From Mobula hypostoma (taxonomy: Eukaryota), in assembly GCF_963921235.1 (NCBI RefSeq), contig NC_086097.1, positions 38,132,001 through 38,196,000 of the forward strand: a DNA stretch of 64,000 nucleotides, in the 5' to 3' direction. Under the pieces are notes generated by a model. The model did not search any database. It was not told the origin of the DNA and saw only the letters and a program-made list of their open reading frames with translations. The position numbers and the translations under genes are program-made. This document shows positions 3,928 through 61,790 of the stretch, piece by piece; position 1 is the stretch's first letter; every line of letters starts with the position of its first letter.

Positions 3928-6900
3928 AGAACCATAGAACACTACAGCACAGAAAACAGGCCATTCGGCTCTTCTAGTCTGTGCCGAAACTTTATTCTGC
4001 TAGTCCCATTGACCTGCACCCAGTCCTTAACCCTCCAGACCTCTCCCATCCATGTATCTATCCAATTTATTCTTAAAACTTAAGAGTGACCCCGCATTTA
4101 CCACATCAGCTGGCAGCTCGTTCCACACTCCCACCACTCTCTGAGTGAAGAAGTTCCCCCTAAACCTTTCCCCTTTCACCTAAAGCAATGTCCTCTCGTA
4201 TTTATCTCTCCTAATCTAAGTGGAAAGAGCCTACTCGCATTTACTCTGTCTATACCCCTCATAATTTTGTAAACCTCTATTAAACGCCCCCTCATTTTTC
4301 TACGCTCCAAGGAATAAAGTCCTAACCTGTTCAATCTTTCCCTGTAACTCAACTCCTGAAGACCTAGCAACCTCCTAGTAAATCTTCTCTGCAATCTTTC
4401 AATCTTACTGATATCCTTCCTATAGTTAGGTGACCAGAACTGCACGCAGTACTCCAAATTTGGCCTCACCAATGTCTTATACAACCTGACCATAACATCC
4501 CAACTCCTATACTCAATACTTTGATTTATGAATGCCAGGATGCCAAAAGCCGCCTTTACCACCCTGTCCACCTGTGACGCCACTTTCAGGGAATTATGTA
4601 TCTGAACTCCCAGATCCCTTTGTTCCTCCGCATTCCTCAGTGCCCTACCATTTACTGTGTATGTCCTACCTTCCAAAATGCAACACCTCACACTCGTCTG
4701 CATTAAATTCCATCTGCCATTTTCCGGCCCATTTTTCCAGTTGGTCCAGATCCCTCTGCAAGCTTTGAAAGCCTTCCTCGCTGTCCACAACACCTCCAAT
4801 CTTAGTGTCATCAGCAAACTTGCTGATCCAATTTACCACAGCCTTTCCTTCAACTACTTTCTTGGTAACCTCCTCTAAAAACTCTACAACATTCATTAAA
4901 CAGGATCTATCACACACAAAGCCATGCTGACTATCCTTAATCAGCCCTTGGCTGTCCAAATACTTGTATATCCGATCTCTCAGAACACCTTCCAATAATT
5001 TACCTACAACTGATGTCAGGCTCATCGGCCTGTAATTACCTGGTTTACTTTTGGAGCCTTTTTTAAACAACGGAACAACATGAGCTACCCTCCAATCCTC
5101 CGGCACAGCACCCGTGGCTAAGACATTTTAAATATTTCTGCCAGGGCCCCTGCAATTTCTACGCTAGTCTCTCTCAAGGTCCGAGGAAGTAGCATGTCAG
5201 GTCCAAGGAAATAGCATGTCAGGCCCGGGGGATTTATCTACCTTTATTCACTGTAAGGCAGCAAGCATCTCCTCCTCTTTAATCTCTGTATGTTCCATGA
5301 CACTACTGATTGTTTCCCTTCCTTCCATATACGCTATGCCAGTTTCCTGAGTAAATACTGATGCAAAAAAGCTGTTTAAGATCTTCCCCCATCTCGTGAG
5401 GCTCCACACATAGACGACCCCTCTTATCTTATAGGGGACCAATTTTGTCCGTTACTATCCTTTTACTCTTAATATACTTGTGGAAACCCTTGGGGTTTAC
5501 CTTCACATTATCTGCCAAAGCAACCTCGTCTTCTTTTTGCCTTCTTGATTTCCTCCTTTAGTTTTTTTTTTACATTTTCTATAATCTTCAAGTGCCTCAT
5601 TTGTTCTTTGTTGCCTATACCTGCTATACATCTTTCTCTTTTTCTTAACCAGATCACCAATATCCCTTGAAAACCAAGGCCTGTTAACTCTGCCGTTAAT
5701 CCTGGCAGGAACATGCAAACTCTGCACTCTCAAAATTTTGCCTTTGAAGGCCTTCCACTTACTGAACACATCCTTGCCAGAAAACAACTTATCCCAATCC
5801 ACTCTTCCTAGCTCCTTTCTCATTTCCACAGAATTGGCCCTTCTCCAATTTAGAACCTCAACTTGAGGACGAGCCCTATCCTTATCCATGAGTAACTTGA
5901 AACTAATGACATTATGGTCACTGGATCCAAAATGTTCACCTACACATACTTCTGACACCTGACCTGTCTGGTACCCTAATAGGAGATCAAGTATTGCATC
6001 CTCTCTCGTAGGTACCTCTATATGTTGATTTTTGAAACTTTCCTGGACACATTTGACAAACTCCAAGCCATCTAGCCCTTTCACAGTGTGGGAGTCCCAG
6101 TCAATATGTGGAAAGTTAAAATCCCCTACTATTACAACTTCCTGTTTCTTCCTGTGTCTGCTCTCTCTCTACAGATTTGCTCCTCCAATTCTCTCTGACT
6201 ATTGGGCGGTCTATAATACAACCCTGTTAGTGTGGTCACACCTTTTCCGTTACTCAGCTCCACCCATATGGCCTCTGTAGGCAAGCCCTCCAGGCTATCC
6301 TGTCTACACACAGCTGTGATATTCTCCCTGACTAATAATGCCACTCCTCCCCCTTTCATCCCTCCCCCTCTGTCACGTCTGAAACAACGGAATCCTGGAA
6401 CATTAAACTGCCAGTCCTGCCCCTCCTGCAGCCAAGTCTCACTAATAGCAATAATGTCATAATCCCACGTGCCACTCCACACCCTAAGCTCATCTGCCTT
6501 ACCTACAATACTCCTTGCATTGAAATAGATGCACCTGAGAACATTTCTATCATGTACAAACCTTTGATTTCTATCTATACATGTAGCCCTCGCATGACCT
6601 TTATCCTCCTCCACCTCACTTTCTGCTCTAACACTCTGGTTCCCCTCCCCCTGCAAATCTAGTTTAAACACCCCGGAGCAGCACGAGCAAATCTACCCGC
6701 GAGGATGTTAGTCCCCATCGGAACAGGTCCCATCTTCCCTGGAACAAAGCCCAATTGTCCAGAAACATGAAGCCTCCCCTCCTGCACCATCTCCTTAGTC
6801 ACGTATTTAGCTACATTACTATTTCTATTTCTAGCCTCACTAGCACGTGGCACGGGTAGCAATCCTGAGAGTGCAACCCTGGAGGTCCTGTCCTTCAACT

Positions 6901-7535
6901 TTTTCCTAACTCCCTAAACTCTCTTTGTAGGACCTCCTCCTCTTCCTATCCATGTCATTGGTCTCTACATGGACCACGACATCTGGCTGCTCACCCTCCC
7001 TCTTGAGAATACCAAGATCTCAGTCTGAGATATCGCGGACCCTGGCACCAGGGAGGGAACAGACCATCCGGGATTCTCAATCTCTCCCACAGAACCTCTT
7101 ATCTGTCCCCCTAACTATCAAATCCCCTATCACTACTGCTCTCCTCTTTTCCCTCCTTCCTTTCTGAGCTGAGGGTCCCGTCTCAGTGCCAGAGAGGTGA
7201 CCACTACAACTTGTCCCTGGTAGGTTGTCCCCACCAGCAGTATCCAAAACGGTATACCTATTGTTGATGGGAACGGCCACAGGGGTGCTCTGCTCATTCT
7301 GTCTGTTCCCCTTCGCTCTCCTGACAGCCACCCAGCAACCTGCCTCCTGACTTTGGGGGTGACTGTCTCCCTGAAACTCCTCTATTTCTGCCTCTGCCTC
7401 ACGAATGATCCGAAGTTCATCCAGCTCCAGCTCCAGTTCCCTAACTCGGTTTGTCAGGAGCTGCAGCTGGATGCACCTTTTACAGGTGTAGTCATCAGGG
7501 ACAATCGTGCTCACCCTGACTTCCCACATGCTGCC
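3928..7535 (-). mobile_element. Near full-length CR1 LINE (ORF1 zinc finger/zipper/esterase plus ORF2 endonuclease-RT), internally deleted
   Basis: ORF1 YTCKRCIQLQLL..RVRELELELDEL and VVIGD.IVRG; endonuclease NARSI, ISETW, GGGVALL, SDHN; RT NYRP.SLTS, QHGF, KFADDTK; CR1 3' tail at 3928. Confidence 0.93.
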
Positions 7536-8348
7536 ACCTTTCCCACATTTTAGGGAAACAGATGCCATATTGCTGAGTGTAATAATGTCAGTGCAGTAAA
7601 TGTATGCCAGAACTTGAGGAGGCACCAGGTCAGTTTTCAACTGAGGGTTGAAGCCAGTGCCATCGGTTTAGCATTCAGTGATGTAACAGGTAAGCTTGCA
7701 AACTTGCACAGGTACAAACACACCACACAGCACAGATAAACACTGAACCAGTCCTATTTAAAGAGGTTAAACACAACTTGTTACCTGCAGGTTGATTTCA
7801 TCTGGATTTTTCTGCTGTTGTACATGTGTTCTCTCTTTCAGTTTACTAAAGTTTTCAGAGCAGTGAGTCAGGTTCTTGCCACTAATTTCAGAATTTCTAT
7901 GCAAGTTGCCCTTGGATGTGGTTACATTAGTCGGCATACCTTTGGACTAAGTGGATGGCCGCAGAATACCAGAGATCACACTGAGCAGGAGGAGAAGGAA
8001 GACTGCAAATGGGGTGAATGGAAGTAGGGCTCTCACCACTCACTGGTTCTGTGCAGTTCAATTGACTGAACTGGGATAGAGCAACATTACACACATTCCT
8101 GGATGTCTTAACATGAGGTGCTCATGCAAGCCAGGAGACCTGAAGCTTGCCACACTGTTAAGTGTGTAAGAATATCATGAAGCATGTAGCTTTAAGCTAG
8201 GAGTCCTGATTTGATGATTGTTATTGGATAAATGACAGGCTTGCCGTGAATTTGGATGTGTGTAACATCAGAGAAGCAGTGGATAGAATAATGCATTTTC
8301 TCATAGGAAAGCACTGGATTCCTTGCAGCCTTGCATCTAGGTCATATA

Positions 8349-8888
8349 CACTCAGTGACTATTTTATTAGGTACACCTGTACACCTATTCTTAAATGCAA
8401 ATATCTAATCAGCCAACCCTGCGCCAGCAACTCAATGCATAAAAGCACGACGGCAAGGTCAAGAGGTTCAGTTGTTCTTCAGACCTAACATCAGAATTAG
8501 GATGAAATGTGACCAAAGTGACTTTGATAGTAGAATGATTGTTGGTGGCAGAAGGGGTATCTTAGAAGCTGCTGATCTCCTGAGATTTTCATGCGCAACA
8601 GTCTCTCGAGTTTACAGAGAATGGAGTGAAAACCAAAAATACATTCAGTGAGCGAGTAGCTGTTCTGTGGGAAGAAACTCCGTATTAATGAGAGAAGACT
8701 GAGGAGAATGGCCAGACTGGTTCAAGCTGACAGAAAGGTGAGACTAGCTCAAATAACCACAAGTAACAGTAGTCGTGTGCAGAAAAGCATGTCTTGACAC
8801 ACTGCATGTCGAACCTTGAAGTGGATGGGCGAAAGCAGAAGACCACACTGGGTTCCACTCCTGTGACTAACAACGTTGCCATTGAGTG
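8349..8888 (+). mobile_element. Internally deleted Tc1/mariner DNA transposon (540 bp)
   Basis: Degenerate inverted termini cactcagtgactattttattag / ctaacaacgttgccattgagtg, with TA on both sides (8347-8348, 8889-8890). The interior resembles a Tc1 transposase N-terminus. Confidence 0.8.
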
Positions 8889-10298
8889 TAAATCTGGCAC
8901 TGCCCTTTGCATTGTGCTCTCACTGTCATTTAACCATATGCTGGAAGAGCCAGCTGTTGCTCTTTGAAAACAGCCTATCCATCCTAAATTCATCTTTTTC
9001 AGTAAGGCCTGCATTCCATTTTGCAAAGAGCTTGTTCATTTGCATTATGGAGCCTTGCACAGTTTCCTAGGCCGGCTTCTTTAACTGCTGCTAGCTGTTC
9101 ATTATGTTAACCACATGATGATGCAAGCACCCAATCAACTGTGTATTGATGCTAATGAGTATTATGCAAATGAGAAGGCAACATGAAATTGGGAGGCTGC
9201 CTCCAGTTCAGTCAGTGGGTTTGGTTAATTGCACATCATGATCTTCAAACCTGTTTTGAGGCTTGACTTGACTGACTTAATTGATTTATTTGAGAAAATG
9301 TCTATCAAAGTGGACAATAATATTCCTAGGAATATGTTGCATTCCCTGACTGAAACAACTTTTTAGGAAGTGCCACAAATGAGGCTGTTAAATAAGGATA
9401 GTCCATATGTCTTAATTGAACAGTTATACTAGATAGCTAATCCATTAAGTTTTATAGGCTGGGGATTGGTACTAATGTGATTGAATCTGGTCAGACCATG
9501 ATTGAATGGAGCCTCATAAATTTCCATGCTTTGGCTGCATCTGTTTTATTTAGATTAGGACATGAATGATATCATCCTTGTATCCACAATTGACAAATAA
9601 ATAGAGATTTATCAAAATGAATTTGGAAAATGGGTCTTTTGAGGAGGATGCCTTTAGTATCCACAACACTGGGTACAATTGCACCATCTGAGAATGATCA
9701 GTAATAGATATGATATATCAAAAAAGAGATCTGAACTTGATTGGTGACTTTGAAACAAAAAGAAATGAATTGGCTGTAGGATAGGCAACCAGGGTTAATA
9801 GAAAGTAGCTGGTTAAATATAATGGGGGAAAAGAACAAAATCAAACGGGAAAAAGCATTCTAAAGCAAAGATGACACACCAGAAGACAAATTAAAACCAA
9901 CTTAAGAGCCAAAGAGAGGGCATATAATAGAGCAAAAATGAGTGGGAAGCAAGAGGATTGGGAAGCTTCTTAAAAACCAACAGAAGGCAACTAAAAAAAG
10001 TCATTTAGAAGGTAAAGATGGAATGTGAAAGTAATAAGGAAGAGGATACCAGAAGTTTCTTTAGATACATTAAGTGTAAAAGAGAGGCAAGAGTGCATAT
10101 TGAACCACTGGAAAATAATGCTGGAGAGGTAGTAATGGGGGACAACAAAATGGCGGACAAACTGAATAAGTATTTTGCATCAGTCTCCACCGTGGAAAAC
10201 ACTACCAGTGTGGTGGAAGTTCCAGGTGTCAGGTCATGAAGTGTGTGAAGTTACCATAACTAGAGAAAGTTCTTGGGAAACCAAAAGGTCTAAAGGTA

Positions 10299-10388
10299 AC
10301 ACACATCAAAGTTGCTGGTGAACGCAGCAGGCCAGGCAGCATCTGTAGGAAGAGGTGCAGTCGACGTTTCAGGCCGAGACCCTTCGTC
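10299..10388 (-). mobile_element. Penelope-terminus mini-element with hammerhead-like core
   Basis: Perfect 13-bp TSD aggtctaaaggta (10286-10298, 10389-10401). Minus strand reads CTGACGA AGGGTCTCGGCCT GAAA CGTC GACTG. Confidence 0.88.
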
Positions 10389-10477
10389 AGGTCTAAAGGT
10401 AGGTAGGTCACCTGGACCAGATGATATATACCCGAGTACTGAAGGAGATGGCTGAAGAGATTGTGAAGGCATTAGTA

Positions 10478-13629: not shown

Positions 13630-15370
13630 TTCATGTTCCTGGGTGTCAAGATCCCTGAGGATCTAACGGGGCCCCAACACATTGATGTCATAAAGAAGGC
13701 AAGACAGTGGCTATACTTTATTAGGAGTTTGAAGTGATTTGGCATGTCAACAAGTACTCTCAAAAACTTCTATAGTTGTACCATGGAGAGCATTCTGACA
13801 GGCTGCATCACTGTCTGGTATGGAGGGGCTACTGCACAGGACTGAAAGAAGTTGCAGAAGGTTGTAAATCTAGTCAGTTCCATCTTGGGCACTAGCCTAC
13901 AAAGTACCCAAGATATCTTTAGGGAGCGGTGTCTCAGAAAGGCAGCCTACATCATTAAAGACCTCCAGTACGCAGGGCATGCCCTTTTCTCACTGTTACC
14001 ATCAGGTAGGAGATACAGAAGACTGAAGCGATTCAGGAACAGCTTCTTCCCCTCTGCCATCCGATTCCTGAATGGACCCTGAAGCTTTGGACACTACTTC
14101 AGTTTTTTTAAAAAACATTTTTATTTTTATTTGTTACAAACAAACAAAAAAACGCAAAAATATACAGCACATCCACAAAAACTACAACCATCATAGTCAT
14201 AGTTGTAGTCATACTTTATTGATCCCGGGGGAAATTGGTTTTCGTTACAGTTGCACCATAAATAATAAATAGTAATAGAACCATAAGTAGTTAAATAGTA
14301 ATATGTAAACTATGCCAGTAAATTATGAAATAAGTCCAGGACCAGCCTATTGGCTCAGGGTGTCTGACCCTCCAAGGGAGGAGTTGTAAAGTTTGATGGC
14401 CACAGGCAAGAATGACTTCCTATGATGCTCTGTGTTGCATCTCGGTGGAATGAGCCTCTGGCTGAATGTACTCTTGTGCCCACCCAGTACATTATGTAGT
14501 GGATGGGAGACATTGACCATGGTGGCATGCAACTTAGACAGCATCCTCTTTTCAGACACTGCAGTGAGAGAGTCCAGTTCCATCCCCACAACATCACTGG
14601 CCTTACAAATGAGTTTGTTGATTCTGTTGGTGTCTGCTACCCTCAGCCTGCTGCCCCAGCACACAACAGCAAACATGATAGCACTGGCCACCACAGACTC
14701 GTAGAACATCCTCAGCATCGTCCGGCAGATGTTAAAGGACCTCAGTCTCCTCAAGAAATAGAGATGGCTCTGACCCTTCTTGTAGACAGCCTCAGTGTTC
14801 TTAGACCAGTCCAGTTTATTGTTAATTCGTATCCCCAGGTATTTGTAATCCTCCACCATGTCCACACTGACCCCCGGATGGAAACAGGGGCCACCGGTAC
14901 CTTAGTCCTCCTCAGGTCTACCACCAGCTCCTTAGTCTTTTTCACATTAAGCTGCAGATAATTCTGCTCACACCATGTGACAGAGTTTCCTACCGTAGCC
15001 CTGTACTCAGCCTCAATTTGATAACAAAATCAAATGAAATATTGAGCAGCAAAAGAGAAAAAAATATTAAGGCAAAAGTAAACATTCACAGCAGAGGTGC
15101 ACCACACCAAAAATCCTCAGTCCTCACCCCGTGAGAAAGTCCAATACAGGGCCCTATATTCTTTCAAAGATGTCCCCTCTGTCCTCATTATATAGTTTCA
15201 GTCTCTCCAAATGTAAAGTATTTGCCAGTTCTCTCAGCCACAGATCATACGTAGGCACAGAGTCCATTTTCCACATTTGCAGGATTAACTTCTTAGCAAT
15301 CACCATTTACTTCACTTTTTTTAATATACAGTATTTCTGTTTTAGCACATTTTTAATAACCTATTCAATA
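13630..15370. mobile_element. Nested LINE cluster: Rex1 (+, 13630-14105, resuming about 15305), containing an L1 3' fragment (-), containing a younger Rex1 (-, 14195-15010)
   Basis: Rex1 motifs HALFSLLPSGRRYR..NSFFPSAIR (+) and YKYLG..LDWSKNT...SFLPVAIKLYN (-, ORF 14347-14865). An L1-like AT-rich minus-strand end flanks the inner Rex1. Confidence 0.75.
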
Positions 15371-15661: not shown

Positions 15662-15790
15662 AAACATGAGAGGTTTTTTCAGATGCTGGAAATCCAGAGC
15701 AACACACACAAAATGCTGGAGGAACTCAGCAGGTCAGGCAACATCTATGAAAATGAATAAACAATCAACGTTTCAGGGTGAGAGCCTTCT
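15662..15790 (-). mobile_element. Degenerate Penelope-terminus (hammerhead-like) mini-element
   Basis: gcaacacacacaaaatgctggaggaactcagcaggtcaggc...aacgtttcagggtgagagccttc matches the other copies. Confidence 0.8.
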
Positions 15791-16214: not shown

Positions 16215-16408
16215 TGTTTTACTGACAGAAGAGGCAAAGGTGGGTTACTGGTGCCTTAAATCTAGTCACTTCAGGCAGATGGGGCTCATCAGCTATGGTT
16301 GGCTGCTCATCTAGGAGAAGGAAAACTCTGATTTCAAACCTCTGCTGCCTTGAGGCTATACCCACTTGCAGGGAAGGCTTCAGGAGTCAACCCCAAGGAA
16401 AATCCAGA
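16215..16408 (+). mobile_element. Probable RTE-clade LINE 5' UTR fragment
   Basis: The motif ctaggagaaggaaaactctgatttcaaacc resembles RTE 5' UTR sequence from memory; not verified by search. Confidence 0.45.
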
Positions 16409-16409
16409 G

Positions 16410-18215
16410 ATGGAGGGATAATCCAGGATAGTGAGGGATAAAATTGGTCCCTTAGAGAATCAGAGTGGACGGCTATGTGTGGAGCCAAAAGAGATGGGGG
16501 AGATTTTGAACAATTTCTTTTCTTTGGTATTCACTAAGGAGAAGGATATTGAATTGTGTAAGGTAAGGGAAACAAGAAGGGTAGTTATGGAAAGTATGAT
16601 GATTAAAGAAGAGGAAGTACTGGTGCTTCTAAGGAATATAAAAGTGGATAAGTCTCCGGGCCCTGGCAGGATATTCCCTTGGACCTTGACGGAAGTTAGT
16701 GTGGAAATAGCAGGGGCTCTGACAGAAATATTTCAAATGTCATCATAAACGGGGATGGTGCTGGAGGATTGCCGTATTGCTCATGTTGTTCCATCGTTTA
16801 AAAAGGGTTCTAAGAGTAAACCTAGCAATTATCGGTCTGTGAGTTCGACGTCAGTGGTGGGTAAATTGATGGAAAGTATTCTTAGAGATGGTATATGTAA
16901 TTATCTGGATAGACATGGTCTGATTAGGAACAGTCAACATGGATTTGTGCGTGGAAGGTCATCTTTGACAAATCTTATTGGATTTTTTGAAGAGGTTACT
17001 AGGAAAGTTGACAAGGGTAAAGCGGTGGATGTTGACTATATGGACTTCAGTAAGGCCCTTGACAAGGTTCCACATGGAAAGTTAGTTAGGAAGGTTCAAT
17101 TGTTAGGTATTAATATCGAAGTAGTAAAATGGATTCAGCAGTGGCTGGATGGGAGACGCCAGAGAGTAGTGGTGGATAACAGTGTGTCAGATTGGAGGAC
17201 GGTGTCTGGTGGTGTGCCTCAGGGATCTGTACTGGGTCCAATGTTGTTTGTCATATATATTAATGATCAGGATGTTGGGGTGGTAAATTGGATTTGCAAG
17301 TATATAGATGATACTAAGATAGGTGGAGTTGTGGATAATGAAGTAGGTTTTCAAAGCTTGCAGAGAGATTTAGACCACATAGAAGAGTGGGCTGAAAGAT
17401 GGCAGATGGAGTTTAATGCGGATAAATGTGAGGTGCTACATTTTGGTAGGACTAATCAAAATAGGACATATATGGTAAATGGTAGGGCATTGAAGAATGC
17501 AGTAGAACAGAAGGATCTAGGAATAATGGTGCATAGTTCCCTGAAGGTGGAATCTCATGTGGATAGGGTGGTGAAGAAAGCTTTTGGTATGCTGCCTTTA
17601 TAAATCAAAGCATTGAGTATAGGATTTGGGATGTAATGTTGAAATTGTGCAAGGCATTGGTAAGGCCAAATTGGGAGTATTGTGTACAGTTCTGGTCACC
17701 GAATTATAGGAAAGATGTCAATAAAATTGAGAGAGTACAGAGGAGATTTACTAGAGTATTGCCTGGGTTTTATCTCCTAAGTTACAGAGAAAGGTTGGAA
17801 AAAGTTGGGTCTTTATACTTTGGAGTGTAGAAGGTTGAGGGGGAACTTGATAGAGGTATTTAAAATTATGAGGGGGATAGATAGAGTTGATGTGGATAGG
17901 CTTTTTCCATTGAGAGTGGGGGAGATTCAAACAAGAGGATATGAGTTGAGAGTTAAAGGGCAAAAGTTTAGGGGTAACATGAGGGGGCACTTCTTTACTC
18001 AGAGTGGTAGCTGTGTGGAACGAGCTTCCAGCAGAAGTGGTTGAGGCAGGTTCGATGCTGTCATTTAAAGTTAAGTTGGATAGCTATATGGACAGGAAGG
18101 GAATGGAGGGTTATGGGCTGAGTGCAGGTTGGTGGGACTAGGTGAGAGTAAGAGTTCAGCATGGACTAGAAGGGCAGAGATGGCCTGTTTCCGTGCTGTA
18201 ATTGTTATATGGTTA
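16410..18215 (+). mobile_element. CR1 LINE RT and 3' end
   Basis: The 282-aa ORF has QHGF, YMDFSKA.DKVPH, GVPQGSVLGP and DDTK motifs; a CR1 3' UTR follows. Confidence 0.93.
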
Positions 18216-18243: not shown

Positions 18244-18450
18244 AGCAACACACACAAAATGCTGGAGGAACTCAGCAGGTCGGGCAGCATCGGTGGAAAG
18301 GAGTAAACAGACGACGTTTCAGTCCGAGACTCTTCATCAGGACTGAGAGGGAAGGGGTGGGATGCCTGAATTAAAAGGCAGGGGAGGGGAAAGAGGCTAG
18401 CTGGAAGGTGATAGGTGAAGCCAGGTAGGTGGGAAAGGTCAAGGGCTTGA
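18244..18450 (-). mobile_element. 3' terminus (pLTR with hammerhead-like core) of the Penelope element that continues at 24761
   Basis: Minus strand CAGTC CTGATGA AGAGTCTCGGACT GAAA CGTC GTCTG (18308-18345). The purine-rich sequence resumes after the L1 and is colinear with the copy at 61088-61790. Confidence 0.88.
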
Positions 18451-22448: not shown

Positions 22449-22540
22449 CAACACACATCAAAGTTGCTGGTGAACGCAGCAGGCCAGGCAGCATCTGTAG
22501 GAAGAGGTGTAGTCGATGTTTCAGGCCGAGACCCTTCGTC
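22449..22540 (-). mobile_element. Penelope-terminus mini-element with hammerhead-like core, inserted in L1 ORF2
   Basis: Perfect 13-bp TSD aggatctttataa (22436-22448, 22541-22553); nearly identical to 10299-10388. Confidence 0.88.
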
Positions 22541-23310
22541 AGGATCTTTATAAAGCCAATTTTGTTCCCTTAGTAGACTCTATGAAGTATTTATTTAGTA
22601 GATGGAGTCCACTTACATTTTCACTTGTTGGTCGTATTCATATAGTTAAAATGATGATTTTACCAAAATTTTTATATTTATTTCAGAATATTCCTGTTTT
22701 TTTGACTAGGAAGTTTTTTGATCGGATTGATTCTATTATTTTATCTTTTATTTGGAACAATAAAAGACCAAGAATTAGTAAATGTCACTTAAAAAAATTG
22801 AAAAAGGATGGCAGTCTTGCTTTGCCTAATCTAAGAATGTATTATTGGACTGTTAATGTGCAATACATGTCTTTTTGGTTATACTGGGTTGATAAGAGCG
22901 ATCGGCCAATTTGGGTAGACCTGGAACTGAAAATTGTAAAACAGTTTTATTTAACCTTGTTATTGGGAGCTCCTTTACCTGTGCAAGTAGTTAAAGTTGT
23001 TAATTTAAACCTATATCCTGTGATTAAGTATTCCTTACAAATTTGGCTCCAGTTCCGCAATATTTTTAATCTTAAAAAATTTAAATTTTGTAGTTTAATT
23101 TATCGAAATTACTTTTTTAAGCCTTCTTTGAGTGATCCAATTTTTTTACTTTGGAAAAATAATGGTATTAATTCTTTTTTGGATTTATTTAAAGAAGATA
23201 GATTGATGTCTTTTGAACAATTAATTGATAAATATTCTCTTTCATACTCACACTTTCTGCAATACCTTCAAGTTAGACATATTTTACAAAAATATTTAAG
23301 TAATTTTCCT

Positions 23311-30246: not shown

Positions 30247-30914
30247 GTAAGAACAAAATAAATTCTTCTATTTTAGGACTCAAATAGGAAGACTTATTGA
30301 TTGTATTTCCTTTAAATCTTTAACTGGGAAAGAGGTTCGGTCCTACTGCTTTTATCATTGTGGAGCTGCAAATCTGTCTCTCAAATCAAATCAATGTTAA
30401 TTGTCATTCAAACCATACATAGATACAGCTGAATGAGGCTCTGGGGCCAAGGGGCAAAACATTCAAAATGGCAAGCTAACATTCAGAAATAGCAAGTAAT
30501 GTAATTCAAAATATGGAGCAAAGAAGCATATCACTCGGGGGGGGGGGGGGGGGAAGAAACAAAGTTCTCACCAAGAACTTCCTAGGTATTTTTTTCTGTC
30601 TGGATCTTCTATTTATTAGAATTTTAAACAGTGTTATCCTGAGCAAACTAAGTGAGTTATTCTCTTCTCTTTTGCTGTGGTATAATAATACTCATTTATT
30701 TATCCCAGGGTGTAAAGATCAGGAATTTGTATTCCCATCAAATCAATGGCCTCAATTCCTAAAGAATGAATGATTACTTGTGACTTTCAATATTGTTTCC
30801 ATTATCCAAATGATACCACTTCATGGCATAGCTGAAATACTTTGTGGGTAATCCTTGTGATGCAAAAAGAAACATATCAACTGAGTGGAATGCAAAAAAT
30901 ATTTTAATAATTAA

Positions 30915-31012
30915 GTCCTGACAAAGGGTCTCGGCCGGAAATGTCGATTGTACCTCTTCTTATAGATGCTGCCTGGCCTGCTGCGTTCACCAGCACTTTT
31001 TGTGTGTGTTGC
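30915..31012 (+). mobile_element. Penelope-terminus mini-element in an RTN1 intron, core mutated (CTGACAA)
   Basis: TSD ttaata(a/g)ttaa (30904-30914, 31013-31023); same body as the other copies. Confidence 0.85.
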
Positions 31013-37449: not shown

Positions 37450-40400
37450 AGTTTAGAATACAAAAACTGGCCCACCATGCTCATGCTAATCATCTCTACT
37501 TTATCAATACTCTTCTCATTTTCCTGAACTTGGTTTATAGCCTTCTATGCCTTGCAATTGTCATGCTGGACTCGGTATAAGAAGGTTCTGAGAGTAGCCA
37601 CTTCCACCATGCACACAAGCAGTGCATTATAGTTTCCAACCAAGTTATTTCCTTATGTTCCCTTTTATAACTCTTACTCCATAACCTATGACCTCCAGTT
37701 GTCGATACCTCTGCTGTGGGGTAAAGTTTCCTACACTCATTATTTTGCATGCCTCTGTCAGATTCTCCAAGGACAACAAACCCAGTCTATCCCATCTCTC
37801 GGTATAAATGAAGTACTTCATCCCTGGCATATCTTGTTGAATCTCCAGTGCACTCTGTCCAATGCAATCACATCCTTTCTGTAGTGTGGTAACCAGAATC
37901 GAATGCTGTTGCAGCCAAATCAATCTTTCCTAAAGTTTATATCATAACCCCCTTTGTCTGATCTAATGCCCTGACTAAGGAAGAGTCCTGAGGCCCTTGT
38001 ACCTACTACCTGATGGCAGCAGCAAGAAAAGAGCATGACCTAGATGGGACACCCCCAACCTTGGTGTCACCTGCAAATTTGCTGATACAGTTCACCACAT
38101 TATCATCCAGATCATTGATGTAGACGACAAACTACAACGGACGCAGCACTGATCCCTGTAGCACACCGCTAGTCACAGCCCTCCATTCAGGGAGGCAACC
38201 ACCTACCACCACTCTGTGGCTTCTCCTGCAAAATCAATGTCTAATCCATTTTACTACCTCATCTTGAGTGCCAAGCGACTGAACATTCTTGACCAACCTT
38301 CCACTGGGGACTTTGTATAAGACCTTGCTAAAATCCATTTGGAGAACATCCACTGTCCTGCCTTCATCGGCTCTCCTGGTAACATCCACAAAATTCTCTG
38401 TTAGATTGGTTGGACATGACCTACCATGCACAAAGTCAAGTTGACTATCCCTAATCAGTCCCTGTGTATCCAAATACTTACATATTTGGTCCCTTAGAAT
38501 ACCTTCCAATAACTTTCTCACTACTAATCTCTACTAGGGCTCCTGCAATTTCTACACTTGCCTCCCACAGGGTCCGAGGGAACACCTTGTCAGGCCCTGG
38601 GGATTTATCCACCCCAATTTGCCTCAAGACAGCAAGCACCTCCTTCCCCTCTATAATTTGTAATGGGTCCATGACCTCACTGCTGTTTTGCTTCACCTCC
38701 ATTGTCTCCATGTCCAGCTTTCAATGAAATACAGATGCAAAAAATCCATTTAAGATCTCCCCCATCTCTTTCAGCTCCACACATAGAGTACCTCTCAGAT
38801 ATTCCAGGGGAACAATTTTGTCCCTTGCTATCCTTTTGCTCTGAATATATCTGTAGAAGCCCTTAGGATTCTCCTTCACCTTGTCTGCTAGAACCTCATG
38901 CCTTCTTTTAGCCCTCCTGATTTCCTCCTTAAGTGTTCTCTTGCATTTGTCATACTCCCCAAATACCTCATTTGTTCCTACCTGCCTATACCTGCTATTC
39001 ACCTCCTTTGTCTTAACCAGGGCCTCAATATCTCTTGAAAAGCAAGGTTCCCCAAACCTGCTATCCCTGCCTTTTATTCTGACAGGAACATACAAACTCT
39101 GTGCTCTCAAAATATCACTTCTGAAGATCACTCATTTACCAAGTGCACCTTTGCCAGAAAACAACCTGTCCCAGAAAACAACCTGTCCCAATCCACACTT
39201 GCCAGATCCTTTCTGATACCATCAAGAATGGCCTTTCTCCAATCTAGAATCTCAACCTGAGGATCGGATCTATCCTTTTTCATAATTACCTTGAAACTAA
39301 TGGCATTATGATCATTAGATGCTAAGTATTCCCCTACACAAATTTTTGTCATCTGCCCTGTCCCATTCCCTAATAGGAGATCTAGTATCACATTCTCTGT
39401 AGTTGGGACTTCTATATACTGATTAAGGAAACTTTCCTGAATACATTTGGTAAATTCCTTTTACAGTATGGGAATCCCAAACAATATGTGGAAAGTTAAA
39501 ATCACCCACAATCACAACCTTATGTTTCTTGCAACCGTCTGTGATCTCGTTACAAAATTGCTCTGCTAAATCCCACGGACTGTTGGGTTGTCTATCATAT
39601 AATTCCATTAATGTGGTTATATCTTTCTTATTCCTCAGTTCTACCCATAAAGCTTCATTAGACAAGCTGTCCAGTCTGTACTGACTGAGCATTGCTGTGA
39701 CATTTTCCCTGACTAGTAATGCTATCCCTCCCCTATTACTCTCACTCTATCACATCTAAAACAATGAAACCCCTGAACATTGAGGTGCCAGTCCTGTCCT
39801 CCTGCAGCCAAGTCTCATTAGTGGCTCATTATTATCATCATTATGTGCCGTGTTACATACTGTATGTGATCCTGGTCCCATGACCATGATTGTTCTTGGC
39901 AAATTTCTTCCCTGGAAGAGAGCCCAATGATCCAAAAATACAAAGCCCTCTTTTCTGCACCATCTCCATAGCCACATGCTAAACTATATAATCTTCCTAT
40001 TTCTGGCCTCAGCACATGGCATGCAGGGCAATCCTGAGATCACAACCTTGGATGTCCTACCCTTTAACTTGGCACCTAACTCCCTAAACTCACTTTGCAA
40101 GACCTCATCATCCCTCTTTACCCATGTCATTGGTACTGATGTGTATCACAACCTCTGGCTGTTCACCCTCCCAAATAAGAATGCTGTGGACTCGATGTGA
40201 GAGGTCCCATCACCTGCGAGGCAACGTGCCATCTGCAGATCTCATTCTCATCCACAGAACCTCCTTTCTGTTCCCCTAACCAAAAAATCCCTTTTCATTG
40301 CAGCTCATTTCTTCCCCCTCTTCCCTTCTGAGCCACAGAGCTAGATTCAGTGCCAGAGACCTGAGCACTGTGACTTTCCCCTGCCAGGTCATCGCTCCAA

Positions 40401-41210
40401 CAATATCCAAAGTGGTCTACCTGTTGTTGAGGGGAAAAGCCACAGGGGTATTCTGCACTGGCTGCCTATCGCCTTTCCTCCTTTTAATAGTAACCCAGTC
40501 ACCTGTGCCCTGCACCTTGGGCGTAACTGCCTCCCTGTATGTGCTATCATTCAGCTCCTCTTCCTCCCAAATGATGCAGAATTCATCCTGCTCCAGCTCC
40601 AATTCCTTAGAAGCTGCAGCTGGATGCGTTTCTCACAGGTGTAGTCGTCAGGGACACTGAAGGTCTCCCTGTCTTCCCACATCCCACAAGAGGAGCATTG
40701 CACTACCCTGCCTGTCATCTCTACTGCTCTGAATGTGCAATAAAAAAGAAATAAAAAAGTAACAAATAAAAAATCTTCCTATGGCCTACGCCTGTCCTTG
40801 CTGAAGCCTTGAGAACCTCATTCACCTGTAATTACCTGTCCTACCCCTGCTGTCTTCCTTTGATAACAGTACCACATTTGCTGACACCCAGGCATCCAGC
40901 ATTACCTGTGACCAGTGAAGATTTAACCGTCTCTAAGGACTCCAGTAATATATTTTCCCTTGCCTCACATTATCAGCCTGTTATGTAGTTCATCAAGCCT
41001 TGGGGATTCATCCATCTTTAAGTCTACCAAGACTCTATTAACACTTTTTTAGTGAATCACTGGGCATCTCTCTAAATTCTCCAGCTAAGACTTCACTTGC
41101 TTCCTCCAGCTCCACTATTACTTTGGGCCCTAATGAGCACTACTCTCTCCCTAGTTACCTTCTTACCCTTAGTATAGTGATAAGATGCTTTGATATTACC
41201 CTAATTCAAG
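37450..41210 (-). mobile_element. Cluster of decayed CR1 copies; the largest (about 38060-40730) spans ORF1 to RT
   Basis: MDFSK, VDKSPGPD, ILDLLLGN..GQ and VIVGDFNFP motifs, plus ORF1 TGDWVT..R.KG. Confidence 0.85.
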
Positions 41211-43651: not shown

Positions 43652-43754
43652 TAGAGTAACTCATTCAAAGTGCTGGAGGAACTCAACAGGTCAGGCAGCC
43701 TCTTCAGAAAGGAGTAAGCAGTCGACATTTCTGGCCTAGACCCTTCATCAGGAC
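43652..43754 (-). mobile_element. Penelope-terminus mini-element with hammerhead-like core, just downstream of the RTN1 3' UTR
   Basis: Perfect 15-bp TSD agattgaattgaatg (43637-43651, 43755-43769). Minus strand GTC CTGATGA AGGGTCTAGGCCA GAAA TGTC GAC. Confidence 0.85.
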
Positions 43755-48800: not shown

Positions 48801-48963
48801 GCAATATTAGATGTTGGACTGCTAATTGAAATGGGTGATTCCACACATACGTAGTGTTATCATTGAAGATATTCTCCATACCTTTTCTCTGAACTTGGCC
48901 TATCCTGATAGGGGAAAACTCATTAGTTGTTAGAAGTACCAAACAGAATGCTTATTCAAATAA

Positions 48964-49084
48964 GGGTCTCGGCCTGAAACGTCGACTGCACCTCTTCCTA
49001 GAGATGCTGCCTGGCCTGCTGCATTCACCAGCAACTTTTATGTGTGTTGCTTGAATTTCCAGCATCTGCAGAATTCCTGTCGTT
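48964..49084 (+). mobile_element. Penelope-terminus mini-element, truncated within the hammerhead core, long 3' tail
   Basis: Perfect 15-bp TSD tgcttattcaaataa (48949-48963, 49085-49099). Confidence 0.88.
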
Positions 49085-51194: not shown

Positions 51195-52310
51195 TCAAGT
51201 TTTGCATTTTCTCTACAATTAGAAAATAGTCTACATTTTTATTCCTTCCAGCAAAGTACATATCTGTACACTTCCCCACATGAAATTCCATCTGCCATTT
51301 CTTTGGCCCATCACCCACCTGCTCAAATCCTTCTTGCTTCCTCAGCACCAACTGTCCCTCCGCCTCTCTTTGTATCATCCACACATGGGGCCACAAAGCC
51401 ATCAATTCCATCACCTCGATCATTACCATGTCATGTGAAAAGTAGCGGATCCAACACACACCCCTACAGAACACATCGAGTCACCAGCAGCCAACCAGAA
51501 AAGGCCCCGCTCTTTGTCTTCTGCCTGTCAGCCAATCCCTTATCCAAGTTACTATCTTTACTGTCATACCACGGGCTCCTATCTTGTTTAGCAGTCTCAT
51601 GCGTGGCACATTGTTAATTTCTCAAAGAATTCCAAAAGATTTGTCAAGTAAGATCTCTTTTTAAAGAAACCATGCTGACTTTGACCTATTTTATCATGTA
51701 TTTCCAAGTATCCTGAAACTGAATCCTTAATAATAAACTTGAAAATCTTGCCAACCACTGAAGTCTGGCTACCCAGTTTATAATTTCCCATCTTCCACTC
51801 TCCCTTCTTAAAGAGTGGAGTGATATTTATGATTTTCCAGTCCTCTGGAACCATTGCTTTCTAGTGATTCTTGAAAGAATACTACTAACGCCTTGAAAGT
51901 CTCTTCAGCTAGTTCTTTCAGAACCCTGATGTGTAGTCCATCCTGTTCAGGTGACTTATCTACCATCAGACCTTTCAGTTTCATAAGCACTTTCTCCTTA
52001 CTGTTAGCAACTACAATCACTTCTGACTGCTGACTCTTGGATTTCTGCCATGATACTGTTGTCTTCCACATTGAAGAATGACACAAAATACTGAGTTATT
52101 TAGCAACACACACAAAATGCTGGAAGACTCCTGAAGAAGGATCTCAGCCCAAGATGTCGACTGTTTATTCATTTTTATAGATGATGCATGACCTACTTTC
52201 TCCAGCGTTTTGTGCGTGTTGCTTTGGATTTCCAGCATCTGCAGAATTTCTTTGTCTATAACCTGCCATTCCTTTGTTGCTCATTACTATTTCTCCAGCT
52301 TCATTCCCCA
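51195..52310 (-). mobile_element. Decayed CR1 RT fragment containing a hammerhead-like mini-element (52102-52256)
   Basis: VPEDWK...PLFKKG, SQHGF, LTNLLEFFE and WQMEF motifs. Confidence 0.85.
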
Positions 52311-55184: not shown

Positions 55185-55940
55185 CTGCTAGTGTCAACCT
55201 GTCTCGTTTCTGACTGAATATGTTGACCTTCTTGAGGTCTTCAGTAAGAAGGCGGCCACCTCCCTGCCACCACACTGGCCATATGACTGCACCATTGACC
55301 TCTTACCCAGTACTAGTCCTCCACAGAATGGCTCTTCTCCCTCCCTTGTCCTGAATTGATGGCAATGGAAGTGTATTTCAAGAAAGCATTGACCTTAGTA
55401 TTTATCCATCTGTCAACCTCACCAGTGGGGGAGGGGTGTCTTTTTTGTGAGCAAGCGCTGTTGATTATTGATTATTGGCCTCTCAATAACATCACGGTGA
55501 AGAACTACTATCCTCTGCCCTTGCTTGCTTCTGCAAGCAGCAACTGTATTTTCCAAGATTGATCTGTGCAATGCTGACAATCTGTTTCGTATCCGAGAAG
55601 GAGCTGAATAAAAGACAGCACTCAACACCTCCACTAGCCACTATGAATACCAACTGATGCCACTTGGTCTGGCCAACACCTTTGCTGTTTTTCAAGCCCA
55701 GGTCAGCGACGTGCTCCGGGACGTATTGAATTAATTTGTTTTTGTGTATCTGGATGACATTCTTATTTATTCCCGCTGTCACCAGGAACAAGTCCAACAT
55801 GCCTGGAGGATTCTCAGGCGACTCCTCAAGAATAAACTTTGTGCCGAGCTAGAGAAGTTGAATTCTATAGCAAGCAGTGGTCATTCTTGGGCCATATCCT
55901 CACCCCTTCCAGTACTCAAACGAAGCTATGTGAAGTCCAG

Positions 55941-56015
55941 CCCAAAACGTCACCTGTACTCTTTTCCGCAGATGCTGCCTGGCCTGCTGAGTTCTTCCAG
56001 CATTTTGTGTGTGTT
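55941..56015 (+). mobile_element. Short Penelope-terminus mini-element inside Gypsy pol
   Basis: 16-bp TSD with two mismatches, gctatgtgaagtccag / gctgtgtgaagttcag (55925-55940, 56016-56031). Confidence 0.8.
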
Positions 56016-58465: not shown

Positions 58466-58663
58466 TTCACCTGGAACCTACCAGCCTTCTCCTTCCCACC
58501 CTCCCCCCACCTTCTTTATAGGGCACCTGCCCCCTGCCTCTTCAGTCCTGATGAAGGGTCTCAGCCCGAAACGCTGACTGTTCGTTTCCACGGATGTTGC
58601 CCGACCTGCTGAGTTCCACCAGCGTGTTGCTTTGACCCCAGCATCTGCAGAGTATTTTGTGGT
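58466..58663 (+). mobile_element. Longer Penelope-terminus insertion with the complete hammerhead-like fold (58543-58580)
   Basis: TSD tacaaagat (58457-58465, 58664-58672). CAGTC CTGATGA A GGG TCTCAG CCC GAAA CGCT GACTG; the cleavage triplet is mutated. Confidence 0.85.
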
Positions 58664-61087: not shown

Positions 61088-61790
61088 GAAACACAAGAAA
61101 TTCTTCAGATGCTGGAAATCCAAAGCAACACAAACAAAACACTGGAGAAATTCAGCAGGTCAAATGGCATTGCTGGAAACTGTCGATGCTTGAGTCCAAG
61201 ACCCTTCTTCAGGACGGGAAAGGAAGGGGTAAGACACCAGAATAAAAAGTTGGGGAGGGAGAAGAAGAAGAATAGCTAGAAGATGATAGGTGAAGCCAGG
61301 TAGGTAGGAAAGATAAAGGACTGGAAAAGAAAGAACCTGACAGGAGAAGAGAGTGGACCATAGGAGGAAGAGAAGGAGGAGATGCAAGGGAATGTGATAG
61401 GCAGGTGAGGTAAGAGGCCAAAATGGGAATAGAAGAAGAGGGGAGGGGGAGGGGAATACTTTTTTTTTACCAGAAGGAGAAATCGATATTCATGCCATGA
61501 AGTTGGAGGCTATCCGGACAGAATAGAAGATATTGCTTCTTCACACTGAGAATGGCCTCATCTTTGTACAAGAGAAACCATGTACTAACATGTCCAGGTG
61601 GGAATGGGAATCAAAATTAAAATGTTTGGCCACCGCGAAATTGGCTTTTGGCAGGTGAGTGGAGGCGCTTGATGAAGCAGTCCCCCAATATACGATGGGT
61701 CTCACTGTTGTAGAGGCGGTTGCATCAGGAACACCAGACACAATAGATGGCCCCAGCAGATTCACAGGTGAAATGTTTACTCACCTGGAA
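61088..61790 (-). mobile_element. Penelope 3' fragment (GIY-YIG end, 3' UTR, degenerate hammerhead terminus)
   Basis: VAKHFNFDSHSH motif; colinear with 18244-18450 plus 24761-25240. Confidence 0.85.

What the first reader, a model, noticed from the sequence alone, without database searches (positions are those of the whole stretch)
10286..10401. Family of ~100-bp mobile elements built around a minimal hammerhead ribozyme
Seen: at least 11 related segments (10299, 15662, 18244, 22449, 30915, 43652, 48964, 52127, 55941, 58466, 61088), seven with their own 9-16 bp TSDs. Their consensus by eye is CAGUC-CUGA(U/C)GA-A-GGGU CUCG GCCY-GAAA-CGUC-GACUG. This gives stem I CAGUC/GACUG, both catalytic boxes, stem II, a GUC cleavage triplet, and helix III reduced to the palindrome ACGU. 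Established: Penelope-like elements carry minimal type I hammerheads of this kind in their pLTRs, proposed to act as dimers. Inference: here the ribozyme-bearing terminus has spread as a tiny non-coding insertion (about one per 6 kb), like a SINE or retrozyme. The near-identical pair at 10299 and 22449 suggests recent activity. I cannot tell whether this family is already catalogued.
Basis: partly seen in the sequence, partly recalled or inferred. Interest (0 to 1): 0.8.

Follow-up and report, generated by a model that had tools for sequence, protein, structure and literature searches.

The report
Penelope retroelement tails carrying hammerhead ribozyme
These ~100-base repeats are the cut-short tail ends of a very abundant Penelope-like jumping gene and carry its already known small hammerhead ribozyme motif; the kind is ordinary, but the copies stop at the ribozyme's edge far more often than chance allows.

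Summary
The window has 11 related segments with the motif CUGAYGA-A-GGGU-CUCG-GCCY-GAAA-CGUC-GACUG, and I could trace target-site duplications for six of them.

They are not a free-standing SINE-like or retrozyme-like family. They are the 3'-terminal part of an autonomous Penelope-like element (PLE):
- It shows pseudo-LTRs, adjacent inverted 5'-truncated copies and two alternative 3' ends about 35 nt apart.
- The hammerhead lies about 300 nt after the stop codon and about 95 or 130 nt before the 3' end.
- The genome (3.48 Gb) holds 48,862 exact copies of the 33-nt ribozyme string and 248,090 near-exact copies of a 20-nt tail word.

Minimal dimer-type hammerheads in PLE pseudo-LTRs, scattered as thousands of solitary truncated copies, were described in 2014.

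In an unbiased sample, 13 of 30 copies end within -8..+10 nt of the ribozyme's first core base, and 13 of 30 have a head-to-head inverted partner. No excess of ends lies at the predicted cleavage site, and no short tandem arrays were found. Cleavage was not tested.

The parts
10299..10388 (-). Flagged copy: short-form PLE 3' end (ribozyme core, helix II, GAAA, ACGU, GUC, GACUG, about 60-nt tail ending ...GUGUGUU). It is flanked by a 13-bp TSD at 10286-10298 and 10389-10401, and the 5' boundary is ambiguous by a few nt because of microhomology.
   Evidence: 100% identical over 94 nt to many genome copies
22450..22543 (-). Short-form copy, 92 of 94 identical to the flagged one, with a 12-13 bp TSD. 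It starts at or next to CUGA.
30911..31010 (+). Short-form copy with an imperfect TSD of about 13 bp. It starts about 4 nt before CUGA, and box 1 is mutated (CUGACAA).
48962..49084 (+). Copy truncated inside the ribozyme (it starts at GGGUCUC, so box 1 is missing) and carrying the long 3' tail. It has a 15-bp TSD.
43656..43752 (-). Older-subfamily short-form copy with a 15-bp TSD. It starts 3 nt before CUGA and its ribozyme is decayed.
15662..15789 (-). Older-subfamily copy with the long tail. Its 5' end lies near the ribozyme edge and is preceded by AACAAC-type letters that may be a few inverted tail bases.
52098..52262 (+). Older-subfamily copy starting about 5 nt before CUGA, preceded by a 22-30 nt inverted fragment of its own tail (52098-52127). 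Together they form a small head-to-head pair.
   Evidence: (family D12)
18247..18430 (-). Older-subfamily longer copy: the homology continues at least 70 nt upstream of the ribozyme into 3'-UTR-like sequence. Helix II is mutated.
58466..58663 (+). Older-subfamily copy that starts about 90 nt upstream of the ribozyme, with a 9-bp TSD. The 5' strand CAGUC is present and the GUC triplet is mutated.
55940..56015 (+). Decayed copy: box 1 is unrecognisable while GAAACGUC and the tail are kept. It lies inside an open frame with an LTR-retroelement RNase H-like match.
61088..61300 (-). Older-subfamily longer copy with the long tail. Homology continues upstream of the ribozyme, which is decayed.

Best explanation
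The 11 segments are insertions of the 3'-terminal (pseudo-LTR) part of an autonomous, recently active Penelope-like retrotransposon (PLE). They are not an independent small element.

Shown here:
- About 300 nt after the stop codon lies a minimal type I hammerhead motif. Its helix III is reduced to the palindrome ACGU, and an unpaired A follows CUGAYGA.
- About 95 nt or about 130 nt further on lie the two alternative 3' ends.
- Copies are flanked by 9-15 bp target-site duplications.
- Full-length copies are preceded by a direct or inverted partial copy.
- About half of all copies end within about 10 nt of the ribozyme's 5' edge, often joined head to head to an inverted second copy within one duplication.

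Inferred from published work on other PLEs:
- The element's own protein nicks both DNA strands.
- It starts reverse transcription at one of two internal sites in the RNA, which gives the two 3' ends.
- It copies towards the RNA's 5' end.

My reading of the hot spot (inference):
- The template usually ends there, or the nascent cDNA folds back there.
- The RT has by then copied the whole ribozyme, so a block by RNA structure is unlikely.
- The junctions of inverted pairs overlap short inverted repeats, including the two strands of helix I. That fits snap-back priming or joining of two cDNAs.

Consequences:
- The short copies are dead on arrival.
- They lack the upstream pseudo-LTR sequence, and most lack the 5' strand of helix I.
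- Any ribozyme activity belongs to the parent element's transcripts. The published proposal is protein-assisted or dimeric self-cleavage of multi-copy RNA. It was not tested here.
For: Continuity with a coding element:
- About 18 of the 30 best genome matches continue upstream of the ribozyme with shared sequence (my count by eye).
- This sequence runs on into an open frame. It reads ...YIDD..., then C-x4-C-x2-C, then ...LYIGET.RRLGDRFAEH....
- Pfam GIY-YIG scores 22.9 bits against a cut-off of 22.6 on copy L033.
- On a 1,043-aa open frame, RVT_1 scores 23.9 bits and GIY-YIG 19.6 bits.
- A protein search gave 157,860 first-look candidates. 110 were scored, all at 92-95% identity apart from the query itself. 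Open frames reach 1,092 aa, and eight are 1,011 aa or longer.

Architecture:
- L045 has an inverted 839-bp copy of the 3' end, a direct 318-bp pseudo-LTR with a second ribozyme, the ORF, and then the 3' UTR with ribozyme and tail.
- L046 and L047 have direct pseudo-LTRs of 1,115 and 1,206 bp.

Copy numbers (controls 0 to 2 per strand):
- 48,862 exact 33-mers of the ribozyme.
- 248,090 tail 20-mers at up to 1 mismatch and 128,249 exact.

Three-prime ends: of 30 unbiased copies, 18 end at +85..+101, 10 at +128 or beyond, and 2 elsewhere.

Five-prime ends:
- 13 of 30 end at -8..+10.
- In the window, 6 of 11 end within about 5 nt of CUGA.
- Genome-wide 20-mer counts at up to 2 mismatches fall from 148,799 (positions 0..+19) to 100,350 (-11..+8), while the tail gives 153,710.

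Inverted pairs:
- 13 of 30 copies have an adjacent partner.
- I found 24 pairs in 322 kb, with junction overlaps at short inverted repeats.
- Among the first 100 exact ribozymes there are 8 head-to-head pairs and 0 tail-to-tail pairs within 2 kb.

Literature:
- PMC4209133 (main text, parts 1-2 read) describes min-HHRs in PLE pseudo-LTRs.
- PMC11167929 (main text, parts 1-2 read) describes internal RT initiation, the tail and cleavage of both strands.
- PMC8557442 (passages read) describes 5' truncation, partial tandems, adjacent inverted copies and the tail.
Against: - No Rfam hammerhead model matches. Nothing reached the gathering score, nothing reached E<=10 over the whole window, and nothing appeared on a 131-nt stretch. 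This is expected for a motif without helix III, but it gives no support.
- Thermodynamic folding does not give the hammerhead fold. The MFE is -14.1 kcal/mol, against -7.7 for helices I+II.
- RVT_1 stays below Pfam's cut-off. GIY-YIG passes it in only one of the two copies scanned.
- No solved structure matches by sequence.
- The RT was not placed on a tree.
- There is almost no covariation. Only 1 double-sided change occurs over 9 pairs in 56 distinct strings, because the copies are young.
- In 68 of 85 copies the 10.1-11.1 pair is G-U and not the G-C called typical.
- The cause of the 5'-end hot spot is not shown, and no RNA data could be used.
Confidence: 0.87

Rival explanations
1. The ~100-bp units are a self-standing non-autonomous family (SINE-like, or a monomeric retrozyme) built around the ribozyme. 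They have their own master copies and are mobilised in trans by PLE enzymes, perhaps through self-cleaved or circular RNA.
For: - There is a discrete length class: 13 of 30 unbiased copies begin at -8..+10 and end at about +95 or +130.
- The copies have clean TSDs and a very high copy number.
- Non-LTR retrozymes are held to be non-autonomous PLE derivatives and were found in the one cartilaginous fish sampled (bioRxiv 10.64898/2026.07.22.740005, abstract and Results read).
Against: - The short copies are 100% identical over 94 nt to the 3' ends of long, ORF-linked copies.
- They hold nothing besides PLE 3' sequence, and they lack the sequence upstream of the ribozyme.
- There are no short tandem arrays. 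The smallest same-strand spacing is 1,666 bp among 100 exact ribozymes, and only 3 same-strand neighbours lie under 300 bp apart in 322 kb.
- Ends are not at the cleavage site. 1 of 30 lies at +29, and the 139-hit histogram shows no peak there.
- The same hot spot is shared by inverted pairs that lie within a single TSD (L051).
Confidence: 0.06
2. The copies are ordinary random 5' truncations of a retrotransposon. The apparent ~100-bp class is only the short end of a smooth truncation curve, and the hammerhead-like string has no bearing on where copies stop.
For: - PLE insertions are known for heavy 5' truncation (PMC8557442, passages read).
- 12 of 30 sample copies do end at scattered places from -218 to -1,382.
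Against: - 13 of 30 ends fall in one 19-nt window. The binomial p is 4e-22 for a uniform model and 4e-8 for the most favourable exponential.
- One third of the genome-wide count is lost over 11 nt, from 148,799 to 100,350.
- The older subfamily shows the same boundary in the window, at 43656, 15701 and 52130.
Confidence: 0.04
3. The motif is a sequence relic or has another role in the PLE RNA, such as a protein-binding or priming structure, and does not self-cleave in vivo.
For: - No Rfam match, and the MFE is not the hammerhead fold.
- The young subfamily has G-U at 10.1-11.1.
- Published min-HHRs cleave poorly in vitro (PMC4209133).
- For the anole PLE, cleavage needed the protein, was dispensable for insertion in vitro, and left no RNA-seq ends at the cut site (PMC11167929).
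- Here no insertion ends pile up at the cut site.
Against: - Core positions vary less than the flanks among 85 copies. Non-CpG change is 3.3% in the core, against 10.8% in the 3' flank.
- Polymorphism within the motif sits at tolerated places: N7 C/U, G-U versus G-C at two closing pairs, and loop 2.
- The motif is kept between subfamilies whose upstream UTR has diverged.
- The anole motif does cleave, with rescue by the compensatory C3G/G8C change (PMC11167929).
Confidence: 0.3

Closest known systems
Minimal hammerheads (min-HHR) in the pseudo-LTRs of metazoan Penelope-like elements (Cervera and De la Pena 2014, PMC4209133)
   Same: - Both catalytic boxes are present.
- There is an unpaired base between positions 9 and 10.1.
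- Helix I is short (5 bp).
- Helix III is reduced to a palindrome (15.2-16.2 = C-G) that calls for a dimer.
- The motif lies in both flanking repeats of a PLE.
- Thousands of solitary copies exist, 'probably related to truncated PLEs'.
- Pairs occur on opposite strands 100-700 bp apart.
   Different: - The host is cartilaginous-fish-like: the best named protein relative is from a shark at 72% identity.
- Helix II is only 4 bp with a CUCG loop.
- The 10.1-11.1 pair is G-U in the most prolific subfamily.
- The copy number is far above the roughly 4,000-9,000 reported for coelacanth and Xenopus.
- The clustering of 5' ends at the motif's edge is not mentioned in the text I read.
Poseidon PAc of Anolis carolinensis, studied in vitro (Frangieh et al. 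2024, PMC11167929)
   Same: - There are two alternative 3' ends 30-40 nt apart (the 'tail'), about 100 nt downstream of the hammerhead.
- The head-to-head products fit cleavage and extension of both DNA strands.
- There are no ends at the ribozyme cut site.
   Different: - In PAc the ORF starts inside the ribozyme. Here the first possible start codon lies about 88 nt after CUGA.
- The linker here has C-x4-C-x2-C, a motif that the literature ascribes to the Neptune and Nematis clades. The clade was not tested by phylogeny.
Non-LTR retrozymes of animals (Cervera and De la Pena 2020, PMC7229834, search listing only; Li et al. 2026 preprint 10.64898/2026.07.22.740005, abstract and Results read)
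   Same: They are small non-coding hammerhead-bearing sequences related to PLE pseudo-LTRs, and they depend on PLE enzymes.
   Different: - Retrozymes are tandem arrays with canonical type I hammerheads that give circular RNAs.
- Here there are no short tandem arrays, the motif is the minimal form, and the copies are plain fragments of the autonomous element.
5' inversions of LINE-1 by twin priming, and hairpin self-priming of cDNA at the end of a template (recalled, no paper read)
   Same: Inverted structures arise in one insertion event, within one TSD, with microhomology at the junction.
   Different: Here both arms are the same 3'-terminal region with both tails pointing outward, not an inverted upstream segment.

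Membership tests
Penelope-like elements (canonical, endonuclease-bearing) | A single ORF with a reverse transcriptase followed by a C-terminal GIY-YIG endonuclease | tested here: met
   The 1,043-aa frame has RVT_1 at 534-696 (23.9 bits, below the cut-off of 29.6) and GIY-YIG at 946-1020 (19.6 bits). GIY-YIG scores 22.9 against 22.6 on copy L033. The YIDD and LYIGET...EH motifs were read directly.
Penelope-like elements (canonical, endonuclease-bearing) | Pseudo-LTRs from partial tandems, often with an adjacent inverted 5'-truncated copy | tested here: met
   Three of three full-length loci have an upstream partial copy: 318 bp direct plus 839 bp inverted, 1,115 bp direct, and 1,206 bp direct. 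L004 and L024 have 627-bp inverted arms.
Penelope-like elements (canonical, endonuclease-bearing) | An optional 30-40 bp tail (two 3' ends) | tested here: met
   Of 30 copies, 18 end at +85..+101 and 10 at +128 or beyond.
Penelope-like elements (canonical, endonuclease-bearing) | RT groups with PLE and telomerase RTs in phylogeny | not tested
   No tree was built. There are 479 relatives at E<=1e-10, and the named ones are 'uncharacterized protein'. No solved structure matches by sequence.
Minimal hammerhead of PLEs (min-HHR) | Core boxes CUGANGA and GAAA, with H17 after GU | tested here: met
   Core positions are 93-100% kept among 85 copies, and the triplet is GUC.
Minimal hammerhead of PLEs (min-HHR) | [quoted passage not shown] | tested here: met
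   It is A in 83 of 85 copies.
Minimal hammerhead of PLEs (min-HHR) | A conserved G10.1-C11.1 pair | tested here: inconclusive
   The pair is G-U in 68 of 85 copies and G-C in 17 of 85. Pairing is kept but mostly as a wobble.
Minimal hammerhead of PLEs (min-HHR) | Palindromic 15.2-16.2, with helix III formed only between two copies | tested here: met
   ACGU is present. The 4-bp self-duplex is predicted at only -1.7 to -3.1 kcal/mol. Dimer formation itself was not tested.
Minimal hammerhead of PLEs (min-HHR) | Helix I of 4-5 bp | tested here: met
   In long copies UAGUC or CAGUC pairs with GACUG, and 92% of cells are standard pairs over helices I and II. This is not met in the short window copies, whose 5' strand is not part of the insert.
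Minimal hammerhead of PLEs (min-HHR) | Self-cleavage after C17 | not testable with these tools
   No RNA ends could be read, because the runs are kept as contigs of uncertain kind.
Rfam hammerhead families | A match to a curated covariance model | tested here: not met
   There were 0 hits at the gathering score and no hammerhead at E<=10, both on the whole window and on 131 nt.
Non-LTR retrozyme | Tandem repeats of a short unit, each with a hammerhead | tested here: not met
   The smallest same-strand spacing is 1,666 bp among the first 100 exact ribozymes. Only 3 same-strand neighbours lie under 300 bp apart in 322 kb.
SINE | An own head with an internal promoter joined to a borrowed 3' tail | tested here: not met
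   The whole 94-nt insert is colinear with, and 100% identical to, the PLE 3' end, with no extra head. No tRNA scan was run.

The most novel reading that the evidence does not exclude
The ribozyme's 5' edge may be a built-in boundary of Penelope-like retrotransposition. On this reading, roughly half of a quarter-million insertions are discrete 95-130 bp 'mini-copies'.

Two causes are possible:
- The template RNA starts there. A pseudo-LTR promoter would fire just upstream of the hammerhead, and reverse transcription would start internally about 95 or 130 nt downstream.
- The cDNA of the ribozyme's own helices folds back, or pairs with a second cDNA primed from the other DNA strand.

The hammerhead region would then shape the products of insertion, whether or not it cleaves.
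Probability: 0.3. Interest if true: 0.55.

Novelty: new member of a known kind. Interest (0 to 1): 0.3.

Why it matters
It assigns a repeat that occurs about once per 6 kb in this window to its source, an active-looking Penelope-like element with many open 1,043-aa frames. Near-exact copies of a 20-nt tail word number 248,090 in the genome. This warns annotators that such '100-bp hammerhead repeats' are retroelement ends and not a new RNA gene family.

The non-random stop at the ribozyme edge and the frequent head-to-head pairs give a large natural data set. It bears on two questions about the poorly known integration mechanism of these elements:
- whether both DNA strands are primed;
- what the hammerhead region does during reverse transcription.

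Tried and rejected
- Rfam. No hammerhead at the gathering score, none at E<=10 on the whole window, and none on 131 nt.
- DNA search of the genome with the 65-nt tail. It returned nothing because very common words are skipped. I used pattern counts instead.
- RNA evidence. No RNA holder is listed, and the 24 runs are contigs of uncertain kind. Laying four of them gave no molecule ends and only repeat-type joints, so it says nothing on expression or cleavage.
- MFE and dimer folding. These did not recover the hammerhead fold.
- Covariation. The copies are too young: only 1 double-sided change.
- A second unbiased sample of 30 loci.
- The 20-mer count just upstream, at -26..-7 (57,284). It is an undercount because three polymorphic sites fall in the word, so I do not use it as a measure.
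- A run-off model resting on a conserved AT-rich box at -36..-29. The box is present in 4 of the 5 diverged lineages I could read and absent in L013:2678. It is suggestive only.
- A splice-acceptor reading of the pyrimidine tract plus CAG before helix I. Short copies with clean TSDs carry no upstream exon, so spliced-RNA run-off is rejected as the source of the boundary.
- The 'ACC' after the 3' end in 22 of 30 first-sample loci. This is a selection artefact: my query included 8 nt of flank.
- Earlier notes of this scan. There are none on this genome or on this sequence.
Full report
**What is in the window.**
- The flagged stretch reads, on the minus strand, CUGACGA-A-GGGUCUCGGCCU-GAAA-CGUC-GACUG followed by about 60 nt ending GUGUGUU. 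It sits between two copies of a 13-bp target sequence.
- A degenerate 28-nt core pattern hits 6 times, against none in 100 shuffles.
- The alignment of the 11 copies shows two subfamilies, copies that start at different places, and two kinds of 3' end.
- I could trace target-site duplications for six copies: five perfect (9-15 bp) and one imperfect.
- No Rfam family matches, at the gathering score or at E<=10, on the whole window or on 131 nt. That is expected for a hammerhead without helix III, but it gives no support.

**What the copies belong to.**
- The window lies in a 3.48-Gb assembly. The best 30 genome matches are 96-100% identical to the flagged copy.
- About 18 of them continue upstream of the ribozyme with shared sequence (my count by eye). 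That sequence runs for 630 bp and more.
- It continues into an open frame with the RT motif YIDD, a C-x4-C-x2-C linker and a GIY-YIG endonuclease (...LYIGET.RRLGDRFAEH...). The frame ends about 300 nt before the ribozyme.
- Pfam gives GIY-YIG at 22.9 bits against a cut-off of 22.6 on one copy.
- On a 1,043-aa open frame it gives RVT_1 at 23.9 bits (below the cut-off of 29.6) and GIY-YIG at 19.6 bits.
- A protein search of the genome gave 157,860 first-look candidates. The 110 scored were all 92-95% identical apart from the query itself. Eight lie in open frames of 1,011 aa or more.
- The best named relative elsewhere is an uncharacterised shark protein at 72% identity. No solved structure matches by sequence.
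- The combination of an RT with a C-terminal GIY-YIG endonuclease defines canonical Penelope-like elements (PLEs). I built no tree.

**Architecture.** Three full-length loci were examined.
- One has an inverted 839-bp copy of the 3' end, then a direct 318-bp partial copy with its own ribozyme. The ORF follows, and then the 3' UTR with ribozyme and tail.
- The other two have direct partial copies of 1,115 and 1,206 bp.
- Two further loci are 1.7-kb structures with 627-bp inverted arms, each arm carrying a ribozyme near its outer end.
- Partial tandems (pseudo-LTRs), an adjacent inverted 5'-truncated copy, heavy 5' truncation and an optional 30-40 bp tail are the published hallmarks of PLE insertions (PMC8557442, passages read).

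**How common.**
- Whole-genome pattern counts give 48,862 exact copies of the 33-nt ribozyme string.
- A 20-nt tail word occurs 128,249 times exactly and 248,090 times at up to one mismatch.
- The reversed-pattern controls give 0.

**Where copies begin and end.** The first 30 plus-strand places holding the exact tail word are a sample that is blind to the 5' end.
- Measured from the C of CUGA, the 3' ends fall at +85..+101 in 18 copies, at +128 or beyond in 10, and elsewhere in 2. This fits the two adjacent internal start sites of reverse transcription shown for the anole PLE (PMC11167929, main text parts 1-2 read).
- The 5' ends fall at -8..+10 in 13 of 30. Three lie at +29..+39 and two at -25 and -43. 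Twelve are scattered from -218 to -1,382.
- Thirteen ends in one 19-nt window has p = 4e-22 under a uniform model and 4e-8 under the most favourable exponential model.
- In the window, 6 of 11 copies start within about 5 nt of CUGA. One starts inside the ribozyme and four run on upstream. Both subfamilies show the boundary.
- Genome-wide, 20-mers at up to two mismatches count 153,710 in the tail and 148,799 at 0..+19. They count only 100,350 at -11..+8.
- There is no excess of ends at the predicted cleavage site, +28.

**Head-to-head pairs.**
- Thirteen of the 30 sample copies have an inverted partner abutting their 5' end.
- My 322-kb collection holds 24 such pairs.
- Among the first 100 exact ribozymes on contig C1 there are 8 head-to-head pairs within 2 kb and none tail to tail. 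The smallest same-strand spacing is 1,666 bp.
- At least one pair (L051) lies within a single 15-bp duplication, so both arms arose in one event.
- The two arms often overlap by a few bases that are short inverted repeats of the element. Examples are the two strands of helix I (L066: -9 joined to +29) and AGACC/GGUCU (L018).
- Some 'simple' short copies begin with a few bases of inverted tail (L060; window 52130).

**Reading of the mechanism.**
- Shown: the copies are PLE 3' ends, made with target-site duplications. They have two preferred 3' ends and one strongly preferred 5' boundary, and often come as inverted pairs.
- Taken from the literature: the PLE protein cleaves and extends both DNA strands and starts reverse transcription internally (PMC11167929).
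- Inferred: the boundary lies on the far (5') side of the ribozyme, after the RT has copied all of it. A block by RNA structure is therefore unlikely.
- Either the template commonly ends there, or the cDNA of this self-complementary region folds back or pairs with the second cDNA.
- In D. virilis Penelope the transcription start and internal promoter lie shortly upstream of the ribozyme (PMC2377424, passages read; PMC4209133).
- Here an AT-rich box lies at -36..-29 in 4 of the 5 diverged lineages I could read. I cannot decide between these causes.

**The ribozyme itself.** The motif meets the published description of PLE min-HHRs (PMC4209133).
- It has both boxes, an unpaired base after position 9, palindromic 15.2-16.2 and a 5-bp helix I.
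- The 10.1-11.1 pair is G-U in 68 of 85 copies.
- Over 85 copies (56 distinct strings), 92% of cells in helices I and II are standard pairs. With the 3' partner slid, the figure is 12-44%.
- Only one change is double-sided, so covariation says little.
- Non-CpG core positions differ from the majority in 3.3% of cells, against 10.8% in the 3' flank. The sample was partly chosen with queries that include the motif.
- Energy models do not favour the hammerhead fold.
- Cleavage was not tested. Published min-HHRs cleave weakly as dimers, and the anole one needs its protein.

**Verdict.** The finding is real and is a member of a known kind.
- It is not a new small mobile element.
- What is possibly new is the size and sharpness of the boundary at the ribozyme edge.
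- I found no statement of it in the papers read (PMC4209133, PMC11167929, passages of PMC8557442) or in the listings of five literature searches.
- Supplements of these papers were not opened and may bear on this.

Noticed in passing
window 4000-7700 (-), 16400-18140 (+), 38350-40510: Three copies of a LINE-type retroelement, 71-82% alike. Open frames match the AP-type endonuclease (Exo_endo_phos, Exo_endo_phos_2) and RVT_1 (96 bits).
   Followed up: partly
window 55735-56340 (+): An open frame with an RNase H-like domain of LTR retroelements (RT_RNaseH_2, 35.9 bits). The decayed PLE fragment at 55940-56015 lies inside it.
   Followed up: no
window 55049-55218: A tandem array of a 34-bp unit with about five copies, the first four nearly identical.
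   Followed up: no
window 14347-14901 (-): An open frame matching ALKBH8_N (PF09004, 42 bits). I did not determine whether it is part of a gene or of a repeat.
   Followed up: no
L048-L077 (sample of 30 genome copies): Among the 12 long copies, 5' ends bunch at -444..-593 (7 copies, in the endonuclease-coding part) and at -1,085..-1,382 (4 copies). These may be further preferred stops, or chance.
   Followed up: no
L045 (reverse strand) and the 20-mer counts: GUCGAC, a 6-nt palindrome, straddles the predicted cleavage site. Its self-duplex is predicted at -7.5 kcal/mol, far stronger than the ACGU helix III, and it would compete with the active fold.
   Followed up: partly
runs X1-X24: Runs filed under at least 12 coded organisms hold 14-76% of the sampled words of the element's 3' kilobase. 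Close relatives of this family therefore occur in several species.
   Followed up: no
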